The notes beneath the pieces are model-generated. The model searched no databases. It saw only the letters and a list, made by a program, of their open reading frames with translations, and was not told the origin of the DNA. A DNA stretch of 64,000 bases. Source: Rhizophagus irregularis. Lineage: Eukaryota. The position numbers and the translations under genes are program-made. Of this stretch, positions 164 through 20,599 are shown one piece after another. The stretch is taken from the NCBI RefSeq assembly GCF_026210795.1, contig NC_089432.1, forward strand, positions 2,790,001-2,854,000, given 5' to 3'. The stretch's first letter is position 1. Each line of letters opens with the position of its first letter.

Positions 164-1714
164 TTAATTTCCTTTTATAAAATCACTTGTACGAATCACT
201 AAGCTAGAATAACTTTGCACTTTAATATTATACAACCCAAATTCTTTCACTTCATTGTTAAATGAAGATAAATCACTACTATGACCTCTAAGATCATATA
301 ATGGAGTTATAAAGAAAGATAAATACTCAACTCTTTTCTTTTTTAAGATATATTTTTTTATAGAAGGTAAAATATCTTGACCTTCAATACTATAGATTAA
401 TAATTTCTTAATAAAAGTATTTTGAGAATTTTTTAGAAATACTTCAAAATCAATTATTTTAATATGATGAAGAAATAAATGTAAATATTCTAATTTATAA
501 GGAATATGTTGACCTAAATTTTGTAATATAATTGAACTACATCCATTACTGTCATATGATGTACTGATTGAAAGATGATTAAGATTTTGTTTAATACTTT
601 CAATTAAATATAATACTGGATAAATAATTTGATCATCATTTCCAATTAAGTCAAGATATTTGATATTTTTACAATATTTTATAATTAATTCTAATATTTT
701 TTGTTTTGATGATGAATTAGGTATAAATCCAAATTCATACCCAAAATTTTCTAAATAATCACCGAATTTTTGTAATAATAATTGTAATGATTCAATTTGT
801 AATAATTCGTTTATAAATAAAGATTTCAATTTAAATGATTTAGTTAAATTAATAATTTGTTTAGTAAAATCATTATTTAAAGAAGTACATTTAATGATAT
901 GAACTGATTCTAAAACATTTAGTCGTTCAAAAATTCTATTTAAATTGGTTATACTGTTAAAATCAACACAATAAAAAATGATTGTATTTAAAGTATTTGA
1001 ACAATTATAATCTTTTGATAATAATAATGATTGATATAAAGGAAAATTATTATGACGTAAGAAAATTCTTTTAAGATTTTGATGTAAATTAATTATTTGA
1101 AATATATAATCATTATTGTCGTTTTTGAGAACACCTGAAGTATTAATATAAAGGTTTAAATTTCTAATATTGTGAATGAAATTTATACTTTTTAAAATTA
1201 ACCCAAGTATAGTATTAAGACACGGGTAATAATAATTACCTGAGATCTCAATTTCAAGAGTATGTAAATTTACTTCATTTTCAATAAAAATTTTAAATAA
1301 TGATATATTAATCAATTTTCTAATATCAGATGCTCTATATTCGGGGTTTAAAGGTTTAATAGCAGTTTCAACCCACTTTTCAACAGAGATAATAAACTTA
1401 AATGTATTCAAATATTTTAAAAACTTGAGATAATTGAACAGGGTATTCGAAGGTAATGAATTATTAATAATTTTACATTCATTTAATTCCGTCTTAATAT
1501 CATCAGTTATATTATGTAAGTAAATTTCAATAAAATTATAGTTTCCGGTACGTGATGAAAAAGGATTTTCCCACAATAATGGGATCGCTAAACGACACCA
1601 TAATCTGTTGATTAAAGTGCACGAATATAAAGTTGAATGATCATTTTGAAAATATTTTATAACTCCATAAGTTAATTCAGGTAAATCTCCTGAAAATATT
1701 TTTGAACATGTCAT
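164..1714 (-). CDS. F-box-like/LRR (RNI-like) protein of the Glomeromycota-expanded family
   Basis: 516-aa single-exon ORF with N-terminal LPEL..IKYF..LYSCTLINRLWCRLAIPLLWENPF F-box-like motif followed by degenerate LxxLxL repeats. Confidence 0.75.
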   Translation of the reverse strand: MTCSKIFSGDLPELTYGVIKYFQNDHSTLYSCTLINRLWCRLAIPLLWENPFSSRTGNYNFIEIYLHNITDDIKTELNECKIINNSLPSNTLFNYLKFLKYLNTFKFIISVEKWVETAIKPLNPEYRASDIRKLINISLFKIFIENEVNLHTLEIEISGNYYYPCLNTILGLILKSINFIHNIRNLNLYINTSGVLKNDNNDYIFQIINLHQNLKRIFLRHNNFPLYQSLLLSKDYNCSNTLNTIIFYCVDFNSITNLNRIFERLNVLESVHIIKCTSLNNDFTKQIINLTKSFKLKSLFINELLQIESLQLLLQKFGDYLENFGYEFGFIPNSSSKQKILELIIKYCKNIKYLDLIGNDDQIIYPVLYLIESIKQNLNHLSISTSYDSNGCSSIILQNLGQHIPYKLEYLHLFLHHIKIIDFEVFLKNSQNTFIKKLLIYSIEGQDILPSIKKYILKKKRVEYLSFFITPLYDLRGHSSDLSSFNNEVKEFGLYNIKVQSYSSLVIRTSDFIKGN

Positions 1715-3306
1715 ATTTGTAAATTTTTGAAAGTGAAAAAAGGGGAGTTAACAAATTTTTATTTTGTCGAATTGGGTAAATTATATCGATTTTTTGCCGA
1801 TATTGTCGCACAATTACGCCAATTAATCATGTGTCACAGTGTTACTCTGTTACATGTTTTAATGATTTAGCGCAATTTTAAACTAATGAAATCTAATTAT
1901 GGCAAAGATATACATAGTAAAGATATGCATATTATTCAAGTTTTAAATATTCCGAGTACTCAATGCGTTCAAGATTTATTTGTTTCAATTTCATGTAAGT
2001 TTATACTAAAATATATGGAAATAAGGAAAGTATACAGAATTTATAACCATATATTTCCGTATCTATTTTTTTAATAAGGAATATTTCTCACATACGTTAA
2101 ATTCTACATAGAAATCAACAAAATGTTCCATTTTTATTATAATGATTCGTCAATCAAAAAAATTATTGTCCAGAGCGTAGTCAAAGGACATTCTATTTTA
2201 AAGTGACGGTGATACGGCTGGCCGAACTGGACCTATTTCGACCAGTTAGGAATATTCGGCTCCCGTCGAAATATATCAAAATTTTAAGTAACGGCAAATC
2301 GTCAGAGAAAGAGGAAGAAGAAGAAGATATCGATGTTGATTTGGTGATTTGTATTTTATTCTGACAATCATTAGTAAAAATGTTAACGATAATTCTTTTT
2401 ATATAGAAAATCGAAAATTAAAACGAGACCGGTATGCAAGATATCGGCTATTGAGCGACAGAAAGCCGAAGAATGGCCTACTAAGAGAAGGAAGAAGGGG
2501 AAAAGGTGGTTTGTGCATCCGACTTCCTCTTATTCAAGAGTTGCCATGTTCCCTAAATACATTTCTCATTAATACTATTTTCACGTTCACGTTTATTTCA
2601 CTGATACTAGGTAAATATTTTGCTGGTAGTTAATCACGTGAAGAATCATCGCGAGATTACTCCTCTTCGGACTAATAAAACTTAATACATAAAACTTATT
2701 AAGAGTTTTAATTAACGTATTTGGAAGCTCTTTCAGACTGGACTCAGCATAGCGGTCTTTCATATAAATGTCGATCATTTTGTCGATCATTTTGTCGTTT
2801 TGTCACATTTTACAAAATTCGCTAATTAAATTAAATTTTTATCAATAGTTATAATAATTGTAAGAACCATCAAGACATTAATAAATTTAAGTGTTAAATC
2901 AAGCAAATAAAAACAAATATAAATATTAAAAAAATAAATTTTAAATTATAATATTTTACGGTGAAGTTAAACGTAAATAAAATAAATTTAACGTAAACTT
3001 AATTATAAAATCAACCATTAAATTAACCTTAATTAGCTCCAAATTATATTATTGACATAATTTAAATGAGTTTAATGCCTCCTCCAATTTCTATTTATAT
3101 CTTCATCAGCGAAAACAACTACATTATCATCATTATCCTCTAAACTTGCCTGGAATATCTTGCAATTATCTTTATTAATACCATTACAAAGTTATTTAAT
3201 CTAAAAGGAAAATCGCAAACTTTTTTTTCCAGAAACTTTTAACTGCTTTTCTGTGTAAACAATGTTATGATTTTTGAAAAAACTTCGGTAAAGGAGTAAT
3301 TATCAC

Positions 3307-7171: not shown

Positions 7172-7565
7172 TAAGGATGGTCAGTCGGTCTTTCGGTCCT
7201 GGACGGTCCTGCCCGGTCTTTGGGAAAGTTATAAGGAATGCACCCTTGAATTTTAAGGCGCAGCAAGTATGGCTAAAGACCAATAAATGTCAAAATTTGG
7301 CCTTTATACTTCTTTTTTTAAGACCAGCAGAGGCGAAATTGGAAAAAGACCGAAAAAAGCAAAAAATACTGGTTTTGGCAAAATAAAAACCTGCCTAGCT
7401 CTAAATTGGGTGATTAGATTGAGACCAAAATTTACCACTTTTTGGTCTTTAATCAGTTCTGTTGTGCTACAAAAAATTGGAAGCACAGCCTTATTACTTT
7501 TCCAAAAATTTCCTAAAGACCGATCAGGACCGATCAAAGACCGCAGGACCGACTGACCATCTCTA
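7172..7565. mobile_element. hAT-type MITE inserted in a kinase exon
   Basis: TIR TAAGGATGGTCAGTCGGTC / GACCGACTGACCATCTCTA; 8-bp TSD GTTTTTGA (7164-7171, 7566-7573); removal restores HQKQMVHRDFH. Confidence 0.9.
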
Positions 7566-8140
7566 GTTTTTGATGAATTTTATTAAGTCCTTCAATAGTA
7601 TTAGTTAATACACTTAATTCATTAAATCAATCAAAAACTTCATACTTTTTATTTAAATAACTATTGAAATCTCCACCTTCTGCATATTCAATAACCATAA
7701 TATAATCATTTGTAGTTGGATTTTTAAATTATAAAGAAATTTCATACCTCATTTATAAATTCACCAAGGAAATTTTGTGAATTATGTAAACATTTTAAAG
7801 CAACTTTTGTATTTGATTCTCTTTTCCATTTATAATCAAGACTCATTCCAGGTCCTATATTACAATAGGATAATAAACCATCATTCCATATTACCGAATA
7901 TACTGTAGAGAAACCACCTTTACCAATTTCTTTAATATCATTAAACTGATCATATGGTATCCATTCAAATATCATACCAGAATCACTAGAATTATGATCA
8001 ATATTTAATTTTATTTCTTGAATTAAATCACTAATTTTGTTATTTTCATGATTTGTTTGACATGACATACAACTTTTATTATTTAATTCAAACTGATTAT
8101 TGTATTTTTTGCTACAGTTTTCACAATAATATTTACATTG

Positions 8141-8439
8141 CGGCGGATTTATGAAATTTGGCAAAAACCCTGGTGCGCCCTCGGGAATTAAAATTGACTT
8201 ACAGAAACATTAAGCCTTTTTTTCTAAAAAATGTCAAATATGACGCACCTTTAACACTGGAAAAATTGGTTAGGTAACGGAAAAATTGGTTAGACGCAAG
8301 ATTTGGGGTACAAAAAATTTTTTAGGGCTCATTTTGACCGTTCACTAATAAATTTGGGAAATTTGGTGACTGAAAGACTGTCAAATATTTATTTAATTTG
8401 ACATGACGGACAAATTTAGGGTATTTCATAAATCCGCCG
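8141..8439. mobile_element. MITE with 17-bp TIR and apparent 2-bp TSD (TG)
   Basis: CGGCGGATTTATGAAAT ... ATTTCATAAATCCGCCG; GC-richer than the flanking kinase exon. Confidence 0.8.
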
Positions 8440-9673
8440 TGATGAGTATAAAAACTAGAACAAAATCTCTTGTATTTGGATTTTGAGATACTCCATAACT
8501 TTCCTCAACTGAATATAAGATCTATTAAAATATAAAATCAATATATTATTTTCATTAATAATTAAATTAAATTAAATTTTCAAAAAAACTTCATGCCTCA
8601 TTTAAAAACGCGTGATTAATATTTTGTGAATTATATAGATATTTTAATAAAATCTTTTCATCTGATTCCCTTTTGTAATTCCTTCTTATTTTGCTATAAT
8701 ATAATGGTCCATCCTTCCATATTGCTGTAGCAAAGACACTATTTTCTATTTCTTTAACATCAATAAACTTATTGTATGGTATCCATTCAAATATCATATC
8801 ACCATATTCATTGAGTTTTAATTGCATCTTTTTGATGAAGTCATCAATTTTCTCATTTCCACTAGTCCAGTCTGCAAAATCATTTTTTAAACGATTCATT
8901 TCACGTGATTTACACCAATTATTATAAGCATTCTCGTCATATTTGTTTTCACATTTTAAACAATAATGATTAATATAATTATTATTAAAGACCAAAATAT
9001 AATCTCTTGTATCTGGATTTTGAGATATTCCGGAGACTAGAAATATGATTTAACCTATCAAATACAAAAAATCAAAAATTAATCTTATATTGTATTTAGT
9101 TTAAATAAATAAAAATTCAAATACCTTATTTAAAAATTCGTCAGTAATTTCTTGTGAATTATTTATATATTTTAAATAAACTTTTTCCTTATGTTAGACT
9201 ATTATTTCAAGTTATTTTCGTATTAGGTTAATACCCGAACCAATTTTGATATATACTCGTTTGATTTTGTATTTTTGTATCAATGTTAGAATATAAGAAT
9301 GAACCTATTTTGAAATATTTCTATTAATTATTTGTTCAATTTATCGAATGGTATTTGTATGTTATCGTTATACGAATTCAACGTTAAATAAAGTCACACG
9401 TACTGTACATTAAAAAAAAAATTTTCAAATTGATAAAATTTTCGAATAATTTGTATCACTCGGTTGAAAATTAATAGGACTCAATATTGTACGACTTAAC
9501 TGTTATTTAATGATTGCGTAATTTGTATTACACAAAAAAAAAAGGAAAAATATTTCCCGACATAATTAAGGCAAAAAATATATAATTGGTGAAGATCAAA
9601 TTTTAGGTAACATTAAATTTATATATAAAGTTCCCATTCACGACATTTTTTCTTTTTTATATTTAAAAAAAAA

Positions 9674-12151
9674 ATGGATGGTAATAAATTATTACGAAAA
9701 TTATCACAAAATTTACTTGAAGTTTTAGATGATGGCGAATATTACGATATTATGATTGAAGTTGGTGATGGTAAAACTCACGCAAAAATATTTCGTGCTC
9801 ATATGGCCATATTAAATTATCGTTCTCCTTATTTACGAGAAATTTTATTTGAAAATAAATGGAAGAATTATGATGGAACTTTAGTACGAATTGAATTACC
9901 AAATATTTTGCCGGAAATTTTTCAAGTAATTTTAAGGTATTAAAAAAAAATATATTATTTATGCATTTTATAATCATATAATTTTTTTTTTTAATCGTGA
10001 ATGATTTTTTTTATTTATTTAGATATATTTATGGAGGGAAGTTAACTTTGAAAAATTATGATAATTTATATATAATTAAATTATTGATTGCTGCTAATGA
10101 ATTAAGTATTAAGGAATTGGTTATTTATATACAATTATTTTTGATTAATAACAGAGCAAATTGGTTGGAACAAAATTTTTATTTGATATATCAGACAATT
10201 TTTGAAAGTTATTCTTTCTTAGAACTTCAAAATTATTGTAATAATTTAATGTCAAAAAATCCGAATAAGATATTCGAATCATTAGATTTCCCTTCAATTC
10301 CAGAAAAAATTTTTATTTCGATTATTCAAAATGATAATCTTCAAATGGATGTAGTTCAAATATGGAAAAATGTTCTTAAATGGGGTCTTGCACAAAATCC
10401 GGAGCTTTCTTCAGAACCTCTTAGTTATTCAAAAGATGATTTTAATAATTTAAGGAATACCTTAGAACAATGTATTCCTTTTATTAAATTTTATGATTTA
10501 ACTTCTAAAGAATTTTCGGATAATATATTACCTTATAGGAAAATTATACCAGAGGAATTATATTTGGATTTATTACAAAGCTTTTTAAATTTACACCCTG
10601 ATAGCAAATTAAATATATCAAAACCTCATATGGTTAAAGAAATTAATCCTTCTCAACATAATATAAATAAATCGATAGAAATATTTAATCCTGCACCTTT
10701 TAGCAGAACTAATAAACGTCGTGTTAGAAGATATAGACAGGTATTTTTAATGACTTTTATGATTTTATCAAGAAATATATTTTATTTTTTAAGTTTGATT
10801 TATGAATCGCTTATTAATATTTTTTTGAAATTATATTTAGAGGTTAAAGAAGGTAAATTTTTCAAATTCTCCAAAGAAATTAATTTACGTCCAATTAATA
10901 TTTTGAATTAATTTTGAATTTTTTTTTCTTTTTTTTTTTTAATCACATATAAAGATTTTTTCCCAGATTGACAGTGAAAATTGTAGTCGTGGTTTTGGTC
11001 GTGGTTTTGGTCGCGGTCGCGGTCGTGGCGGTCGTTTTGGTAGAGGTCGTGATGAAGGCGATGAAGGAGAGGTATTGATTTAATTTTATCACGAAATAGA
11101 TTTATATATATATATGTTATTTTGAAATTTATGATCAAACATTTTTTTTTTTAATCACGTATAAAGATTTGTTTTCGTGGTGGTTACGGTCGTGGTCGTG
11201 ATGAAGGAGAGGTATTGATTTAATTTTATCATGAAATAGATTTATATATATATATGTTATTTTGAAATTTATGATCAAATTTTTTTTTTTTTAATCACGT
11301 ATAAAGATTTTTTCCCAGATTAACAGTGAAAATTGTAGTCGTGGTCGTGGTCGTGGTCGTGGTCTTGGTCGTGGTCTTGGTCGTGGTCGTGGTCGTGGTG
11401 GTCGTGGTTACGGTCGTGGTCGTGATGAAGGAGAGGTATTGATTTAATTTTATCACGAAATAGATTTATATATATATGTTATTTTGAAATTTATGATCAA
11501 AATTTATTTTTATTGCTTTATTTTAAAAGACGCCTATAAATTATAGTTCATGGGATAGAGTAGTACTTGTAAGAGATACATGGAATACTGAAGAGCATTT
11601 AAAGTATACATGGGAGAAACCTACGAAGGATGCATGGGACTTCACATTGGATGGTTCTGCAGGTGAATGGGGTGAAACGCCAGTAGCGCCGCAGTCTGCA
11701 GGTGGATGGGGTGAACTCATTGAAGAACCAGAAGCAGGTGGATGGGGTGAAGAGCCAGAAGCGTTGCAGTCTGCAGGTGGATGGGGTGAAGAGCCAGAAG
11801 CGCCGCAGTCCGCAGGTGGATGGGGTGAAACGCCAGTAACGACAGCTACAGGTGGGTGGGATGAACTCATTGAAGAGCCAGAAGCGCCGCAGTCTGCAGG
11901 TACTGCAGGTAGTTTGGATGATACGCAAGTAGCGCCGCAATTTGTGGATGATGTGAAAACATCTATTTCTAGTGATTATGTTTCTGGACGGAGTACAGAA
12001 AAGGTAACTATAAAAATATTTATTAAGTATTTTATATTTAATTTAAAATTCATGAATATAATTTATCTTTTACGACAAGGATCCTCAGAGTAGCACGATT
12101 ATTGAGAATAGCAATACGAAAAAGAAAAAAAACAAAAAAAAGAAAGTATAG
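9674..12151 (+). CDS. BTB/POZ-BACK protein with RG/RGG exons, GW/WG repeat tract and basic C-terminal tail (8 predicted exons)
   Basis: Exons 9674-9936, 10023-10740, 10841-10852, 10955-11071, 11167-11211, 11307-11435, 11530-12003, 12080-12151; all introns GT-AG; frame open throughout; BTB motif FRAHMAILNYRSPYLR..LPNI.PEIF..ILRYIYGG. Confidence 0.8.
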
Positions 12152-12899
12152 TCATATGCAGATTTGGTGAAATAATGACGTAATTAATGAAAGTTTTTCA
12201 GGTTTTTGTTTTTATTCTAAATTTCCAATTCTTATTTACCCAAAACAATCTTAAACTCAATGTAGTACTAGTTATATAAATAAGAATTTACTAATATTAA
12301 CGTTAATGACTCACACTCTTATATCACCATTTGACTATTTGACAGTACATCTACTTATTTAAGATATTAAAATGATCGATTTACGTCTGAAATTTCGACA
12401 AAATTATCAACCAGTGTAAGACCTAAGCCCGTGATAAGTCACGTTGCCTTAGGCTTAACAAAATAATACTTTATTAATAATATAAATAAATACAAATATA
12501 TGCTTGATAATTACTAAATTAAATCATATAAAATCTGAAAATTTCAACTTTCCTTTTATTTACTATGTATATAATCAAATAGTTTTAATCGCGAAATTAC
12601 TAGTTTTATTTAAGTTAGATTTTTTAAACTTTTAAATCTTATCATATTTGAAATAATTTCAATGAATTTTATTATAACAAAAATATAAAATAAATAAGTA
12701 CATAATTTCGAAATATGGTCACTAAAATTTAAAATTCTATTTAACGTAATTTTCACTAAAAAAATTAAAATAAAAACAAAAAAAAAATACTATATTTCTA
12801 AATACACTCAAAAAAGTTAATGCTAATGTATAATTACTATAATGTCATTAATATTGCTGGTCAATTACTTAATATTATGATTTTTATACAATACTTTTA

Positions 12900-17817: not shown

Positions 17818-19293
17818 TTAAGTTAATCCAAAATTTTTTTCCAATTTAATTTCAAATTTCTTAATAATACCTAATTTAATATATTTATCAATAGCTATTT
17901 TTATATCCTCTATATTTATATTTGATTCAATAATGCAATGATTAGAAGCAAAAATAATCAGTGAAAATGATCTATATGATACATTATGATTTTGCCAGTT
18001 TTTAGAAAATTCCTCCAAGTCATGAAGAAGATAATTTATTTGCATTCTAAAATAACAATCTAAAATTAAAGTATGAAAATATTTTTGTGAATAATTTGCT
18101 AAAATCTTGAATAAGGTTTTACCACTTTGCCAATCCTTATAACAAAGTTCAATAATTTCTAAATATTGACAATTATTTAAAGTTAGTTTCAATGATTTTT
18201 TCTCCCTAATATTAGAGTATAAAATTCTAAGATTTGGACAAAGTTTAGCTAGAGTTAAATTCATTAATAAACTATAGTAGTACATATTAAGTATGTATAA
18301 TTCTGTTAAATTTTTTCCATTAATTTCCAAAAATTTACATACACTGTGTAGCAGCATATCAATGCCAGTGTCAGTTGAAAATATGTAGTAATTGATTCTT
18401 AAAATCTTCAATTGTGAAAAATAAACATACTGTAATTGACCAAAACCAGAATAATCAAAATATAAATCTATATGGAGTTCTTGTAAATTTTTGAACATAG
18501 CTATAAATGATAAGGTTATATCACACCTATATAATGCTAACTTTGTTAATGTTAAAGAATGCTTAATTAACGAAGTGGTTATTTTATCATCATAATTATT
18601 ATAACGCTTAAGATTTACAATTTTTAGATTATTTTGTACAGAAATTAAATCTGTTAACCAATTTGAAATTTGAGATTCAAAAACTATAGTTAATGATTGC
18701 ATATTATGACATAGTTGAGTCATTTGATAAAAAAATTCAGAACAAATATTCGAACCACATTTTAATTCTGTGAGATTTTCTAAATGAATTTTTGCTTCAG
18801 GTAAATAAATAAATTTAATATTTCCTGAATTTGAATGCTTGAAATCCAAAACTTTTAATGATGAAATTTGATTCATAAACATTTTTAATATTTCTTGTGA
18901 TAAGATTTCTAAAACAGTTGATTGCTGATTTTTAAGTAAATACTGAATCATTTCATTAATTTTACAAATTGAAATACTTTTGCAAAATGATGCATAATTA
19001 AACAATGGAGGCTTCCGAACCATAATGGTAATATTAACACCATTCTTAATTAAAAGCTTTTTTGATTCTTTAGGAAGACAACCAATTAAAGTAGTAATAA
19101 TTGATGTTGATATATCACGAGGTTTATCATAAAAGTAAAACTTACAAAACTTCCAAAAATTCCTCCATAAAATTCTAACTGCAATTTCACAACAAAGTTG
19201 ATTAACTAATAGACAAGAATATAAAGTATTTTTATCATCATTTAAATATTCTAATATATCATTAAGACAATCATAAGGAAGTTGACAAGTCAT
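17818..19293 (-). CDS. F-box-like/LRR protein
   Basis: MTCQLPYDCLNDILEYL..LYSCLLVNQLCCEIAVRILW; PLFNYASFCK motif; LRR-like repeats; likely start is the ATG at 19293. Confidence 0.75.
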   Translation of the reverse strand: MTCQLPYDCLNDILEYLNDDKNTLYSCLLVNQLCCEIAVRILWRNFWKFCKFYFYDKPRDISTSIITTLIGCLPKESKKLLIKNGVNITIMVRKPPLFNYASFCKSISICKINEMIQYLLKNQQSTVLEILSQEILKMFMNQISSLKVLDFKHSNSGNIKFIYLPEAKIHLENLTELKCGSNICSEFFYQMTQLCHNMQSLTIVFESQISNWLTDLISVQNNLKIVNLKRYNNYDDKITTSLIKHSLTLTKLALYRCDITLSFIAMFKNLQELHIDLYFDYSGFGQLQYVYFSQLKILRINYYIFSTDTGIDMLLHSVCKFLEINGKNLTELYILNMYYYSLLMNLTLAKLCPNLRILYSNIREKKSLKLTLNNCQYLEIIELCYKDWQSGKTLFKILANYSQKYFHTLILDCYFRMQINYLLHDLEEFSKNWQNHNVSYRSFSLIIFASNHCIIESNINIEDIKIAIDKYIKLGIIKKFEIKLEKNFGLT

Positions 19294-20599
19294 TTTATTT
19301 GTTTTTAATGAAATGTTGAATGATTTAAGGATGATAATTTGTAAATTATTTAAGCAAACCTTCTCCACTCCATTTAAATGGAAATTAGTGTGTAAAAAAT
19401 TTTTCATGTTAGTTCAAAATTACTATTCACTTTATCATATTGCATACAAAATTACTAATAATTTTCCTAAATCGGAGATATTAGTCAAGATAATCAAGAT
19501 GATTCATGATTGATCTTATATAAAATTAGATATACTGACTTTTGGTCTTGAACCAAGATAATTTTTTTTGGAAATACATAATTTTTTTGGATATCGGGAT
19601 AAATACTTTGGTTAAAAAATATCCAGATTGACCCATGATAAATACAATTTTTTTTAAAAAATCTAAATTCAATTTTTAATTTTTGGTTAAATTGATATTA
19701 ATTTGATTTTGTACTATAGTATGTAATTTGTAAAAATGAAACACTTGTCTTTTAATTAAATGGTTCCATGATTTTAAATATCTTATTTATAATTAGAATG
19801 GTTGTGTTGAAACATATATATACTCTTACTTTTGATTAACTAAAATATTTTTAATCTATAAATTTTTTATATAAAGTGATTTTTTCGTTGGCTAAAAATA
19901 GTCTTAATGATTTTTATTGATAATTATTGTGATGTGTAAGTGGCAAAATGAAATTTTATAGCAAATGTACGATATTTTTTGAATAAAGATCATACCACTC
20001 ATTTTTTATGAATTATTCGTAACCATTCTATATAGTATCTATTAAATAATTATTTAACTTTTGAAATTGACAAAATATTTACATCACCAATCCTATTGAA
20101 TCCCTTGTCACATTTTTACTTTATCATTTATTATTAATTTACATTTACTAAATACTTTTTAAATAACTTTAAAGTCGATAACTGTACATATTCAGTGCTA
20201 TTACTAAACCACCCTGAATATGATTTCTTTAAAGTATATATTAAAACAGCAGTGGCAGTGTAATATTCTCTTTTGAGGCTTATATTGAATTTTCACTAAA
20301 AAAAAAGTAATTTTTATATTATAACATAAACGATTTATATATATAATATTAGAAAAAATATTCATAAAAAATTTTATTTTAAAATGAAACTTTACTTATT
20401 GCATTTGTGATATAATTTTTAGCTAAAACTTATTGAAATATAGATCAAAAGCAAAAAGGATAAAAATCAAAGAAATTCTTGTATATAAATTTAATATGAA
20501 AATTAATAATAAAACATCTCTAAACGTTTTTGGGCATTTTTCTGTCGAAAGGTGCTCTTCGTCACTATTCATAATAGCCTTTCCAATCGTTCATCCTCA

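What the first reader, a model, noticed from the sequence alone, without database searches (positions are those of the whole stretch)
9674..12151. BTB-BACK protein with an Argonaute-hook-like GW/WG tract: candidate CUL3 adaptor for RNA silencing
Seen: an open 8-exon frame links BTB-BACK to RG-rich exons, then GEWGE, four AGGWGE repeats and GGWDE in an acidic low-complexity context, ending in KKKKNKKKKV (NLS-like). Established: BTB-BACK proteins are Cullin-3 substrate adaptors; GW/WG repeats bind Argonaute PIWI domains (GW182, Tas3, NRPE1, SPT5L); RG/RGG tracts bind RNA. Inference: a ubiquitin-ligase adaptor recruiting Argonaute-RNA complexes, in place of the TLDc, kelch or kinase domain usually found after this BTB type. 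AM fungi have expanded Argonaute families.
Basis: partly seen in the sequence, partly recalled or inferred. Interest (0 to 1): 0.82.

Follow-up and report, generated by a model that had tools for sequence, protein, structure and literature searches.

The report
Fungal BTB protein with tryptophan-repeat tail
This is a real, spliced and expressed gene of a plant-symbiotic fungus whose folded BTB front end carries a tail predicted to be floppy with ten evenly spaced tryptophans, which likely works as a multi-point hook for RNA-protein complexes (possibly Argonaute), while a role in tagging proteins for destruction is only possible, because a key Cullin-3 contact motif is missing.

Summary
Eight exons (9674-12151) give a 609-aa protein identical to Rhizophagus irregularis OCT59_023932. 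RNA contigs from two studies join BTB-BACK to the RG exons across a 12-nt micro-exon; poly(A) reads support the four later introns and show no depth at the 10911 stop. BTB-BACK folds like KLHL11; residues 343-606 are predicted disordered. The Trp tail occurs in three R. irregularis paralogues and one R. diaphanus protein, nowhere else found; its constant feature is Trp followed by acid rather than Gly-Trp. It passes the published Ago-hook score only weakly. RG exons are recent cassette duplications private to this paralogue. The Cullin-3 phi-x-E motif is absent. All three R. irregularis Argonautes tabulated lack Trp pocket-1 residues, though two other AM-fungal Argonautes keep them. The gene sits in a TLDc-less clade whose sister genes carry NBR1-type FW, UBA or other Trp-acid tails, so tail swapping is common there. 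Best reading: a BTB dimer with multivalent Trp-acid hooks for ribonucleoprotein partners (0.35); full Argonaute-targeting Cullin-3 adaptor about 0.12.

The parts
9674..9936 (+). Exon 1: start codon, N-terminal helix and first half of BTB
   Evidence: Pfam BTB E 1.9e-8; spliced contig X4 record 9; AF2 pLDDT mostly above 90
9860..9868 (+). W63-K64-N65, the place of the Cullin-3-binding phi-x-D/E motif; no acidic residue in either register
   Evidence: phmmer alignment to SPOP M233-E234-E235; family alignment; motif definition in PMC3616122 and bioRxiv 461806
10023..10740 (+). Exon 2: rest of BTB, 3-box/BACK helices (to about 10614), linker and start of a basic helix
   Evidence: Pfam BACK; AF2 and Foldseek top hits KLHL11 and KLHL11-Cul3
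10841..10852 (+). Exon 3: 12-nt micro-exon (RLKK) inside the basic helix 318-342
   Evidence: 9-letter gap plus AAG in contigs of X4 and X6; present in NCBI models
10955..11071 (+). Exon 4: RG-rich cassette 1
   Evidence: splice joint 11069-11165; repeat families D4, D5
11167..11211 (+). Exon 5: short RG cassette 2
   Evidence: joints on both sides; flanking introns 92 of 95 identical
11307..11435 (+). Exon 6: RG-rich cassette 3
   Evidence: joints on both sides; 79-85% identical to cassette 1
11530..12003 (+). Exon 7: acidic disordered tract with ten tryptophans spaced 8-13 residues apart
   Evidence: joints 11433-11528 and 12000-12077
11551..11637 (+). Four non-GW tryptophans (W436, W446, W456, W464), each followed by D, N or E; 36 of 40 residues identical to paralogue OCT59_020928; contains WDRV
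11653..11868 (+). Six GW/WG repeat units, 39-nt period, net charge -17; the last (GGWDEL) also fits an ATG8-binding core
12080..12151 (+). Exon 8 coding part: lysine run (12119-12145, NLS-like by recalled rule) and stop; shared with paralogue OCT59_020926; transcript continues to at least 12518

Best explanation
The gene is an expressed, Rhizophagus-restricted member of a BTB-BACK clade that has lost TLDc, and its protein likely forms a BTB dimer presenting two predicted-disordered tails whose evenly spaced Trp-acid motifs likely act as multivalent hooks on ribonucleoprotein complexes, with a pocket-bearing Argonaute as the likeliest single partner. Shown: gene structure, splicing, domain content, clade position, motif spacing. 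Predicted: fold and disorder. Inferred: dimerisation through the N-terminal BTB helix (as in KLHL3/KLHL11); each Trp docking in a hydrophobic pocket helped by flanking acid, as for SGS3 on AGO1; the recently added RG block binding RNA or the acidic block and favouring condensates. Ubiquitin-ligase output is not assumed (about 0.4 on its own). Argonaute as the actual partner is about 0.25.
For: Splicing and identity to the annotated protein. BTB-BACK pLDDT mostly above 90, residues 343-606 below 50. Ten Trp spaced 8-13 apart; 6 Gly-flanked Trp in 100 residues, against 4 or more in only 2 of 147 relatives, one of them a tail-family member. With a Trp-independent anchor, Trp is kept in 10 of 10, 8 of 8, 5 of 5 and 6 of 6 units of P0012, P0004, P0005, P0018 while spacers and Gly flanks change. 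Trp in an IDR plus negative charge are the criteria used to find the AGO1 partner SGS3 (bioRxiv 2025.10.18.683247, passages). An independent BTB-BACK gene (P0066, sister to a TLDc protein, support 97) also ends in Trp repeats plus an RG tract. Geosiphon and Ambispora Argonautes keep P590, F653, K660, R688, E695, Y698; pocket 2 and 3 positions are largely kept across 29 named AM-fungal Argonautes (F653 27, P590 22, basic at 688 in 26).
Against: Pocket-1 residues K660, E695, Y698 are each kept in only 2 of 29 named Glomeromycotina Argonautes and in 0 of 3 from R. irregularis (sample biased to one clade). PMC12477606 finds fungal pockets variable. dos scores are low and unspecific. Trp+acid (9/10, 14/15, 8/10, 12/13) is more constant than Gly-flanking (6/10, 11/15, 4/10, 4/13), so other Trp-motif readers fit as well. 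RG exons are private to this paralogue. In the window gene 2 of 5 anchored units have lost Trp. No relative of the tail outside Rhizophagus. Tandem copying alone can keep Trp in repeats.
Confidence: 0.35

Rival explanations
1. Mostly a by-product of gene-family turnover: a duplicated BTB-BACK gene picked up and amplified low-complexity exons, and the tail has no dedicated partner.
For: 3297 library proteins match the profile; close relatives end in many unrelated or simple-repeat tails or are truncated. The window copy lies among kinase-like fragments, has a longer branch than its sisters (0.06 against 0.017 and 0.016), has lost two Trp and gained RG exons by recent cassette duplication. Read depth is low, about 6-8 at the end of exon 2.
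Against: Intact, spliced frame in several strains; the four-Trp block is 37 of 40 identical between R. irregularis and R. diaphanus, and Trp survives in all anchored units of four relatives while spacers change; a Trp+RG tail arose a second time.
Confidence: 0.25
2. Selective-autophagy or ubiquitin-receptor-like adaptor: BTB oligomerises in place of PB1 and the Trp-acid motifs bind ATG8.
For: The 12-row TLDc-less clade (SH-aLRT 95, quick tree; 9 rows at 0.976) includes NBR1-type FW (P0021, E 5e-34), double UBA (P0025/P0222) and PWDEW-repeat tails; a near relative carries ZZ fingers. One match to the recalled xLIR pattern in each of P0007 (GGWDEL), P0005, P0018 and P0223.
Against: Only 1 of 10 Trp in the window protein fits xLIR, and P0012 and P0004 have none; the repeat consensus has E/T, not L/I/V, three places after Trp. 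The window protein has no UBA, ZZ, FW or PB1 hit.
Confidence: 0.15
3. One reading: a Cullin-3 substrate adaptor that captures Argonaute-RNA complexes through the hook and ubiquitylates them.
For: Fold closest to KLHL11 and KLHL11-Cul3, then KBTBD2-CUL3; 3-box/BACK present; relatives carry typical substrate-receptor domains such as MATH, TPR, SH3; precedent of FBW2 with a putative hook and ZSWIM8 (PMC11371168, passages).
Against: phi-x-E is W-K-N or K-W-K here, and the equivalent E85A severely disrupts KLHL3-Cul3 binding; only 17 of 88 family loops hold any loose phi-x-D/E (the window protein's loose match LFE lies upstream of the motif position). Needs two unshown interactions, plus the Argonaute pocket problem.
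Confidence: 0.12
4. Endocytic or coat-related adaptor whose repeats resemble Sla1/Pan1 QxTG repeats or clathrin W-box motifs.
For: Paralogues pass the Pfam DUF1720 cut-off (P0002 28.6, P0012 25.1 bits against 21.4); clade member P0223 has two PWxxW (the W-box and the DUF1720 link to endocytic proteins are recalled).
Against: No DUF1720 hit for the window exon or its 99% twin; 0 [LIVM]xxQxTG sites in the window protein, 1-3 in relatives; low-complexity match.
Confidence: 0.08

Closest known systems
Glomeromycotina BTB-BACK-TLDc expansion (e.g. R. irregularis OCT59_001208, OCT59_020984)
   Same: Same BTB-BACK module; nested inside this family in both trees
   Different: TLDc replaced by a basic helix, RG exons and a Trp-acid disordered tail
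KLHL11, KLHL3, KBTBD2, SPOP (Cullin-3 adaptors)
   Same: BTB, 3-box and BACK fold; top Foldseek hits, E about 1e-8, 15-22% identity
   Different: No Kelch or MATH domain; phi-x-E not kept
GW/WG Ago-hook proteins (GW182/TNRC6, NRPE1, SPT5L, SDE3, SGS3, Tas3; Cryptococcus Gwo1 as a fungal Argonaute partner)
   Same: Repeated GW/WG in an acidic IDR; passes the dos cut-off
   Different: No homology detected; rich in E, P, A rather than N, S; much lower score; fused to BTB-BACK; binding unshown
Arabidopsis FBW2 (SCF) and animal ZSWIM8 (CRL3)
   Same: Concept of a cullin receptor that turns over Argonaute; FBW2 has Trp repeats likened to a hook
   Different: Different receptor folds; FBW2-AGO1 contact is itself not shown to be direct
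NBR1/p62-type autophagy receptors
   Same: Sister genes carry FW, UBA and ZZ modules; one LIR-like core here
   Different: The window protein has none of these domains

Membership tests
BTB-BACK Cullin-3 substrate adaptors | BTB domain with N-terminal dimerisation helix | tested here: met
   Pfam BTB; helix 3-19 in AF2 model
BTB-BACK Cullin-3 substrate adaptors | 3-box/BACK helices after BTB | tested here: met
   Pfam BACK 23 bits on exon 2 (20.1, just under cut-off, on full-length P0001); Foldseek to KLHL11
BTB-BACK Cullin-3 substrate adaptors | phi-x-D/E motif in the alpha3-beta4 loop | tested here: not met
   SPOP M-E-E aligns to W-K-N, or K-W-K without the gap
BTB-BACK Cullin-3 substrate adaptors | Folded substrate-binding domain (Kelch, MATH or similar) | tested here: not met
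   No Pfam hit on tail exons; pLDDT below 50 for 343-606
BTB-BACK Cullin-3 substrate adaptors | Physical binding to Cullin-3 | not testable with these tools
   No Cullin-3 sequence was fetched and no complex could be folded
GW/WG Ago-hook proteins | Several GW/WG motifs in a disordered region | tested here: met
   6 Gly-flanked Trp in exon 7; disorder
GW/WG Ago-hook proteins | Composition score (dos at least 6.99 and ics at most 2.14, PMC2910046) | tested here: inconclusive
   dos 14.9, 9.2, 18.8 pass, but so do 24 of 147 relatives without the tail; ics matrix is in a supplement not fetched
GW/WG Ago-hook proteins | Conserved Trp with conserved negative charge | tested here: met
   Within Rhizophagus only
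GW/WG Ago-hook proteins | Cognate Argonaute with intact Trp pockets | tested here: inconclusive
   Pocket 1 lost in 3 of 3 R. irregularis Argonautes tabulated, of about 40 reported; intact in 2 of 29 named AM-fungal ones
GW/WG Ago-hook proteins | Trp-dependent Argonaute binding | not testable with these tools
   Needs pull-down
GW182/TNRC6 orthologues | UBA, PAM2 and RRM domains besides the hook (recalled) | tested here: not met
   Only BTB and BACK found
NBR1/p62 autophagy receptors | LIR/AIM in a disordered region | tested here: inconclusive
   One match to the recalled xLIR pattern, absent from the two closest relatives
NBR1/p62 autophagy receptors | PB1, ZZ, FW or UBA domains | tested here: not met
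   None in this protein; present in sister genes
DUF1720 (QxTG) repeat proteins | Pfam PF08226 above cut-off and [LIVM]xxQxTG sites | tested here: not met
   No hit and 0 sites in the window protein; paralogues pass
Glomeromycotina BTB-BACK-TLDc family | C-terminal TLDc domain | tested here: not met
   Absent here and in the 12-row clade; present in 61 of 147 relatives

The most novel reading that the evidence does not exclude
Rhizophagus has built, by exon shuffling inside its BTB-BACK expansion, a small family of Cullin-3 receptors that use a GW182-style multivalent Trp hook as the substrate-binding module and so sort or degrade pocket-bearing Argonautes, while the expanded Argonaute clade, having lost pocket 1, escapes; sister genes built from NBR1-type FW, UBA and ZZ parts would route cargo to degradation.
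Probability: 0.12. Interest if true: 0.82.

Novelty: new variant of a known kind. Interest (0 to 1): 0.42.

Why it matters
AM fungi carry about 40 Argonaute-like genes (PMC6399891) and the paper searches here turned up no GW-type partner for them. A BTB protein with an Ago hook would link two of their largest gene expansions and give a handle on how so many Argonautes are sorted. Even without that, the clade shows recognition tails being swapped onto one scaffold within a single genus, and the split between pocket-less and pocket-bearing Argonautes gives a clear, testable prediction. As it stands the architecture is real and was not found described, but its function is unproven and its range is narrow.

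Tried and rejected
Complex prediction of the repeat tract with a pocket-bearing Argonaute was not available, so there is no docking result either way. No whole genome is held, so paralogue DNA, dN/dS and a full Argonaute or cullin census could not be done. The first AF2 run on 8 sequences was unusable (pLDDT 36); the 81-sequence run was used. ESM Atlas gave no usable hit for residues 425-560; PDB sequence search with exon 7 gave 0 hits to E 10; viral contig scans gave 0 loci. The run list had no holder on record as RNA; evidence rests on what was laid. A weak hit to an unnamed RG+Trp protein (P0020, E 1.2e-4), which looked Stm1/SERBP1-like from memory, was rejected as donor evidence: BLASTP E 0.58 and no Pfam hit. 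A recalled likeness to prion-protein repeats could not be backed by a paper. Read-through to the 10911 stop rejected for the two raw runs, although one older model of a paralogue reads through the same intron (P0014). A fused 915-aa model with downstream kinase fragments (P0010) is rejected by the exon 7-8 joint and their opposite strand. The careful tree did not finish; the quick tree is cited. Shuffle P values overstate significance because repeats are copies. Proteomics supplements of PMC8647823: 0 hits for six identifiers in 8 files, file 1 not searched, and the identifiers may not match that paper's. Three papers on Trp spacing were not held, so the roughly 10-residue spacing rule is recalled. 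Three look-ups of earlier findings returned nothing.

Full report
Observation. The eight exons 9674-9936, 10023-10740, 10841-10852, 10955-11071, 11167-11211, 11307-11435, 11530-12003 and 12080-12151 splice to one open frame that equals the NCBI protein UZO03525.1 / XP_065991128.1, R. irregularis OCT59_023932, 609 aa, annotated only as uncharacterized. Pfam finds BTB and BACK and nothing above cut-off in the tail exons.

Transcription. In two raw poly(A) runs the four introns after exon 4 are spanned by 34/30, 43/51, 32/40 and 26/17 reads at 90% likeness; paralogues can add to these. Spliced contigs of X4 and X6 join exon 2 to exon 4 with 9 unprinted letters plus AAG between, matching the 12-nt micro-exon. 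Raw depth over 10758-10933 is zero, so the 10911 stop is intronic in those runs. Gene-specific depth at the end of exon 2 is only about 6-8. No single record spans the mRNA; overlapping pieces do most of it, and the transcript runs to at least 12518.

Structure. With 81 aligned relatives AF2 gives pLDDT mostly above 90 for residues 1-280, a basic helix at 318-342 and pLDDT below 50 for 343-606. Foldseek ranks KLHL11 and KLHL11-Cul3 first, then KBTBD2-CUL3. The Cullin-3 contact motif phi-x-D/E (passages of PMC3616122 and bioRxiv 461806) is not kept: SPOP M233-E234-E235 aligns to W63-K64-N65, or to K62-W63-K64 if the gap in helix 3 is removed. Only 17 of 88 family loops hold any loose match, and the window protein's own loose match lies upstream of the site. 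E85A at this motif severely disrupts KLHL3-Cul3 binding, though vaccinia A55 shows other residues can carry the interface. So it looks like a Cullin-3 adaptor in fold but fails one defining test.

Family. Two word-based searches with the tail found 5 and 6 proteins: three R. irregularis paralogue groups (OCT59_023932, _020928, _020926), R. diaphanus RGB41344, and one weak unnamed hit that did not hold up. A profile search of 1.84 billion representatives gave 3297 hits; only the best 150 were seen, and the only ones with the repeat tail were again Rhizophagus. Of 147 of them scanned, 61 have TLDc and none Kelch (hand count; thresholds 1e-4 and 1e-5). The window gene falls in a 12-row clade without TLDc (SH-aLRT 95, quick tree of 41 rows; 9 rows at 0.976 among 111) whose tails are GW repeats, NBR1-type FW with a zinc finger, two UBA, PWDEW repeats, or other low-complexity sequence. 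Adjacent accessions on contigs of equal length suggest these genes form an array (inference), while the window gene is on another contig among kinase-like fragments. It is a mosaic: BTB-BACK 260 of 283 identical to OCT59_020928, last exon region 25 of 29 identical to OCT59_020926, and RG exons found in neither. Those exons arose by copying an intron-exon cassette; two of the introns are 92 of 95 identical. Separately, P0066, sister to a TLDc protein, ends in Trp repeats plus an RG tract, a second origin of the same mix.

Ago-hook test. With the published matrix (PMC2910046; abstract and parts 1-3 of 8 read) the tail scores 14.9, 9.2 and 18.8 against a cut-off of 6.99, but 27 of 150 hits pass, 24 of them without the repeat tail, and SDE3 and NRPE1 score 74.5 and 170.3. 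The second score (ics) was not computed. Density is more telling: 6 Gly-flanked Trp per 100 residues, against 4 or more in 2 of 147 relatives. Across four proteins Trp followed by D/E is steadier than Gly-flanking, and R. diaphanus units drift to GNW, GSW and GCW while keeping Trp in 8 of 8 anchored units; the window gene keeps it in 3 of 5. Trp in an IDR with negative charge is what marks SGS3 as an AGO1 partner, and the same preprint warns that aromatic residues also drive condensation (bioRxiv 2025.10.18.683247, passages).

Partner side. A metagenome motif scan gave an AM-fungal-like Argonaute fragment that retrieved 48 Argonautes; 37 were aligned, 11 short or redundant ones dropped. Human AGO2 pocket positions (K660, L694, F653, R688; P590; E695 and Y698 recalled) were mapped by hand. 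Among 29 named Glomeromycotina sequences K660, E695 and Y698 are each kept in 2 (Geosiphon, Ambispora), F653 in 27, P590 in 22, a basic residue at 688 in 26. The three R. irregularis Argonautes tabulated have K660L and E695Y. The sample is biased toward the query's clade and covers 3 of about 40 genes (PMC6399891, passages), so a pocket-bearing R. irregularis Argonaute is neither shown nor excluded. PMC12477606 (section 35) likewise finds fungal pockets variable. No complex could be folded.

Mechanism. Most likely the protein dimerises through BTB (inferred from KLHL3/KLHL11) and displays two long tails, each with a basic helix, a recent RG block and ten Trp-acid motifs that bind partner pockets multivalently and favour RNP condensates (inferred; 0.35, Argonaute itself about 0.25). 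Rivals: neutral by-product of family turnover (0.25); ATG8-type receptor, suggested by the NBR1-like modules of sister genes and one xLIR match (0.15); the full Argonaute-targeting Cullin-3 adaptor (0.12); endocytic adaptor (0.08).

Known and new. Precedents for the idea are FBW2, with Trp repeats likened to a hook, and ZSWIM8 (PMC11371168, passages; PMC9035678, one passage); Gwo1 is a fungal Argonaute partner (PMC10402008, passages). PMC8647823 (passages) treats BTB genes as a high-copy class and names only ARB1/ARB2-type Argonaute partners. Searches for Ago hook with BTB and Cullin (1 paper), Rhizophagus with Argonaute and BTB (3 listed), Rhizophagus with GW terms (none of 18 listed mentions Rhizophagus), AM fungi with BTB/TLDc/Cullin/NBR1 (2 unrelated) and the locus prefix (0) found no description of this architecture; most subscription papers are not in the library, and bioRxiv supplements were closed. 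Verdict: a real new domain combination of known parts, narrow in range, function open; new variant of a known kind, interest 0.42.

Noticed in passing
P0021, P0217, P0025/P0222, P0056, P0223 (relatives): Sister BTB-BACK genes in Rhizophagus carry modules typical of NBR1-type autophagy receptors: FW with an inserted zinc finger, two UBA, ZZ fingers, and PWDEW repeats; several appear to sit in one gene array with the GW-tail genes.
   Followed up: partly
P0168-P0215: A divergent Glomeromycotina Argonaute group keeps the three catalytic-site positions checked almost throughout but has replaced Trp pocket-1 residues (K660 mostly L, E695 mostly Y), whereas Geosiphon and Ambispora Argonautes keep them.
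   Followed up: partly
P0066: Independent BACK protein with a TLDc remnant start, five spaced Trp in an N/S-rich tract and a terminal RG run.
   Followed up: partly
P0101, P0027, P0085, P0086, P0091, P0110: Other BTB-BACK fusions: MIF4G plus MA3 (Diversispora; may be a fused gene model), FG-like repeats, SH3, MATH, TPR.
   Followed up: no
window 10955-11435: RNA loose ends show RG-cassette variants absent from the window and more depth on exons 5-6 than on exon 4, suggesting other RG-cassette loci, strain differences in exon number, or a BTB-less transcript.
   Followed up: partly
window 8136-8444: 22-nt inverted repeats 265 nt apart, MITE-like, inside kinase-like fragments upstream; a similar pair at 7176-7561.
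   Followed up: no
window 12408-12518: Very high contig depth in run X1 marks a high-copy repeat inside the transcribed 3' region.
   Followed up: no
window 10711-10987 (residues 318-342): Basic predicted helix split over exons 2-4 including the micro-exon, largely kept in OCT59_020928 and R. diaphanus; a second NLS-like or nucleic-acid-binding element.
   Followed up: no
window 164-1747 and 17818-19413; 36253-60953: Two long ORFs that look like F-box/LRR genes and several kinase and Sel1-repeat genes (by eye, not scanned).
   Followed up: no
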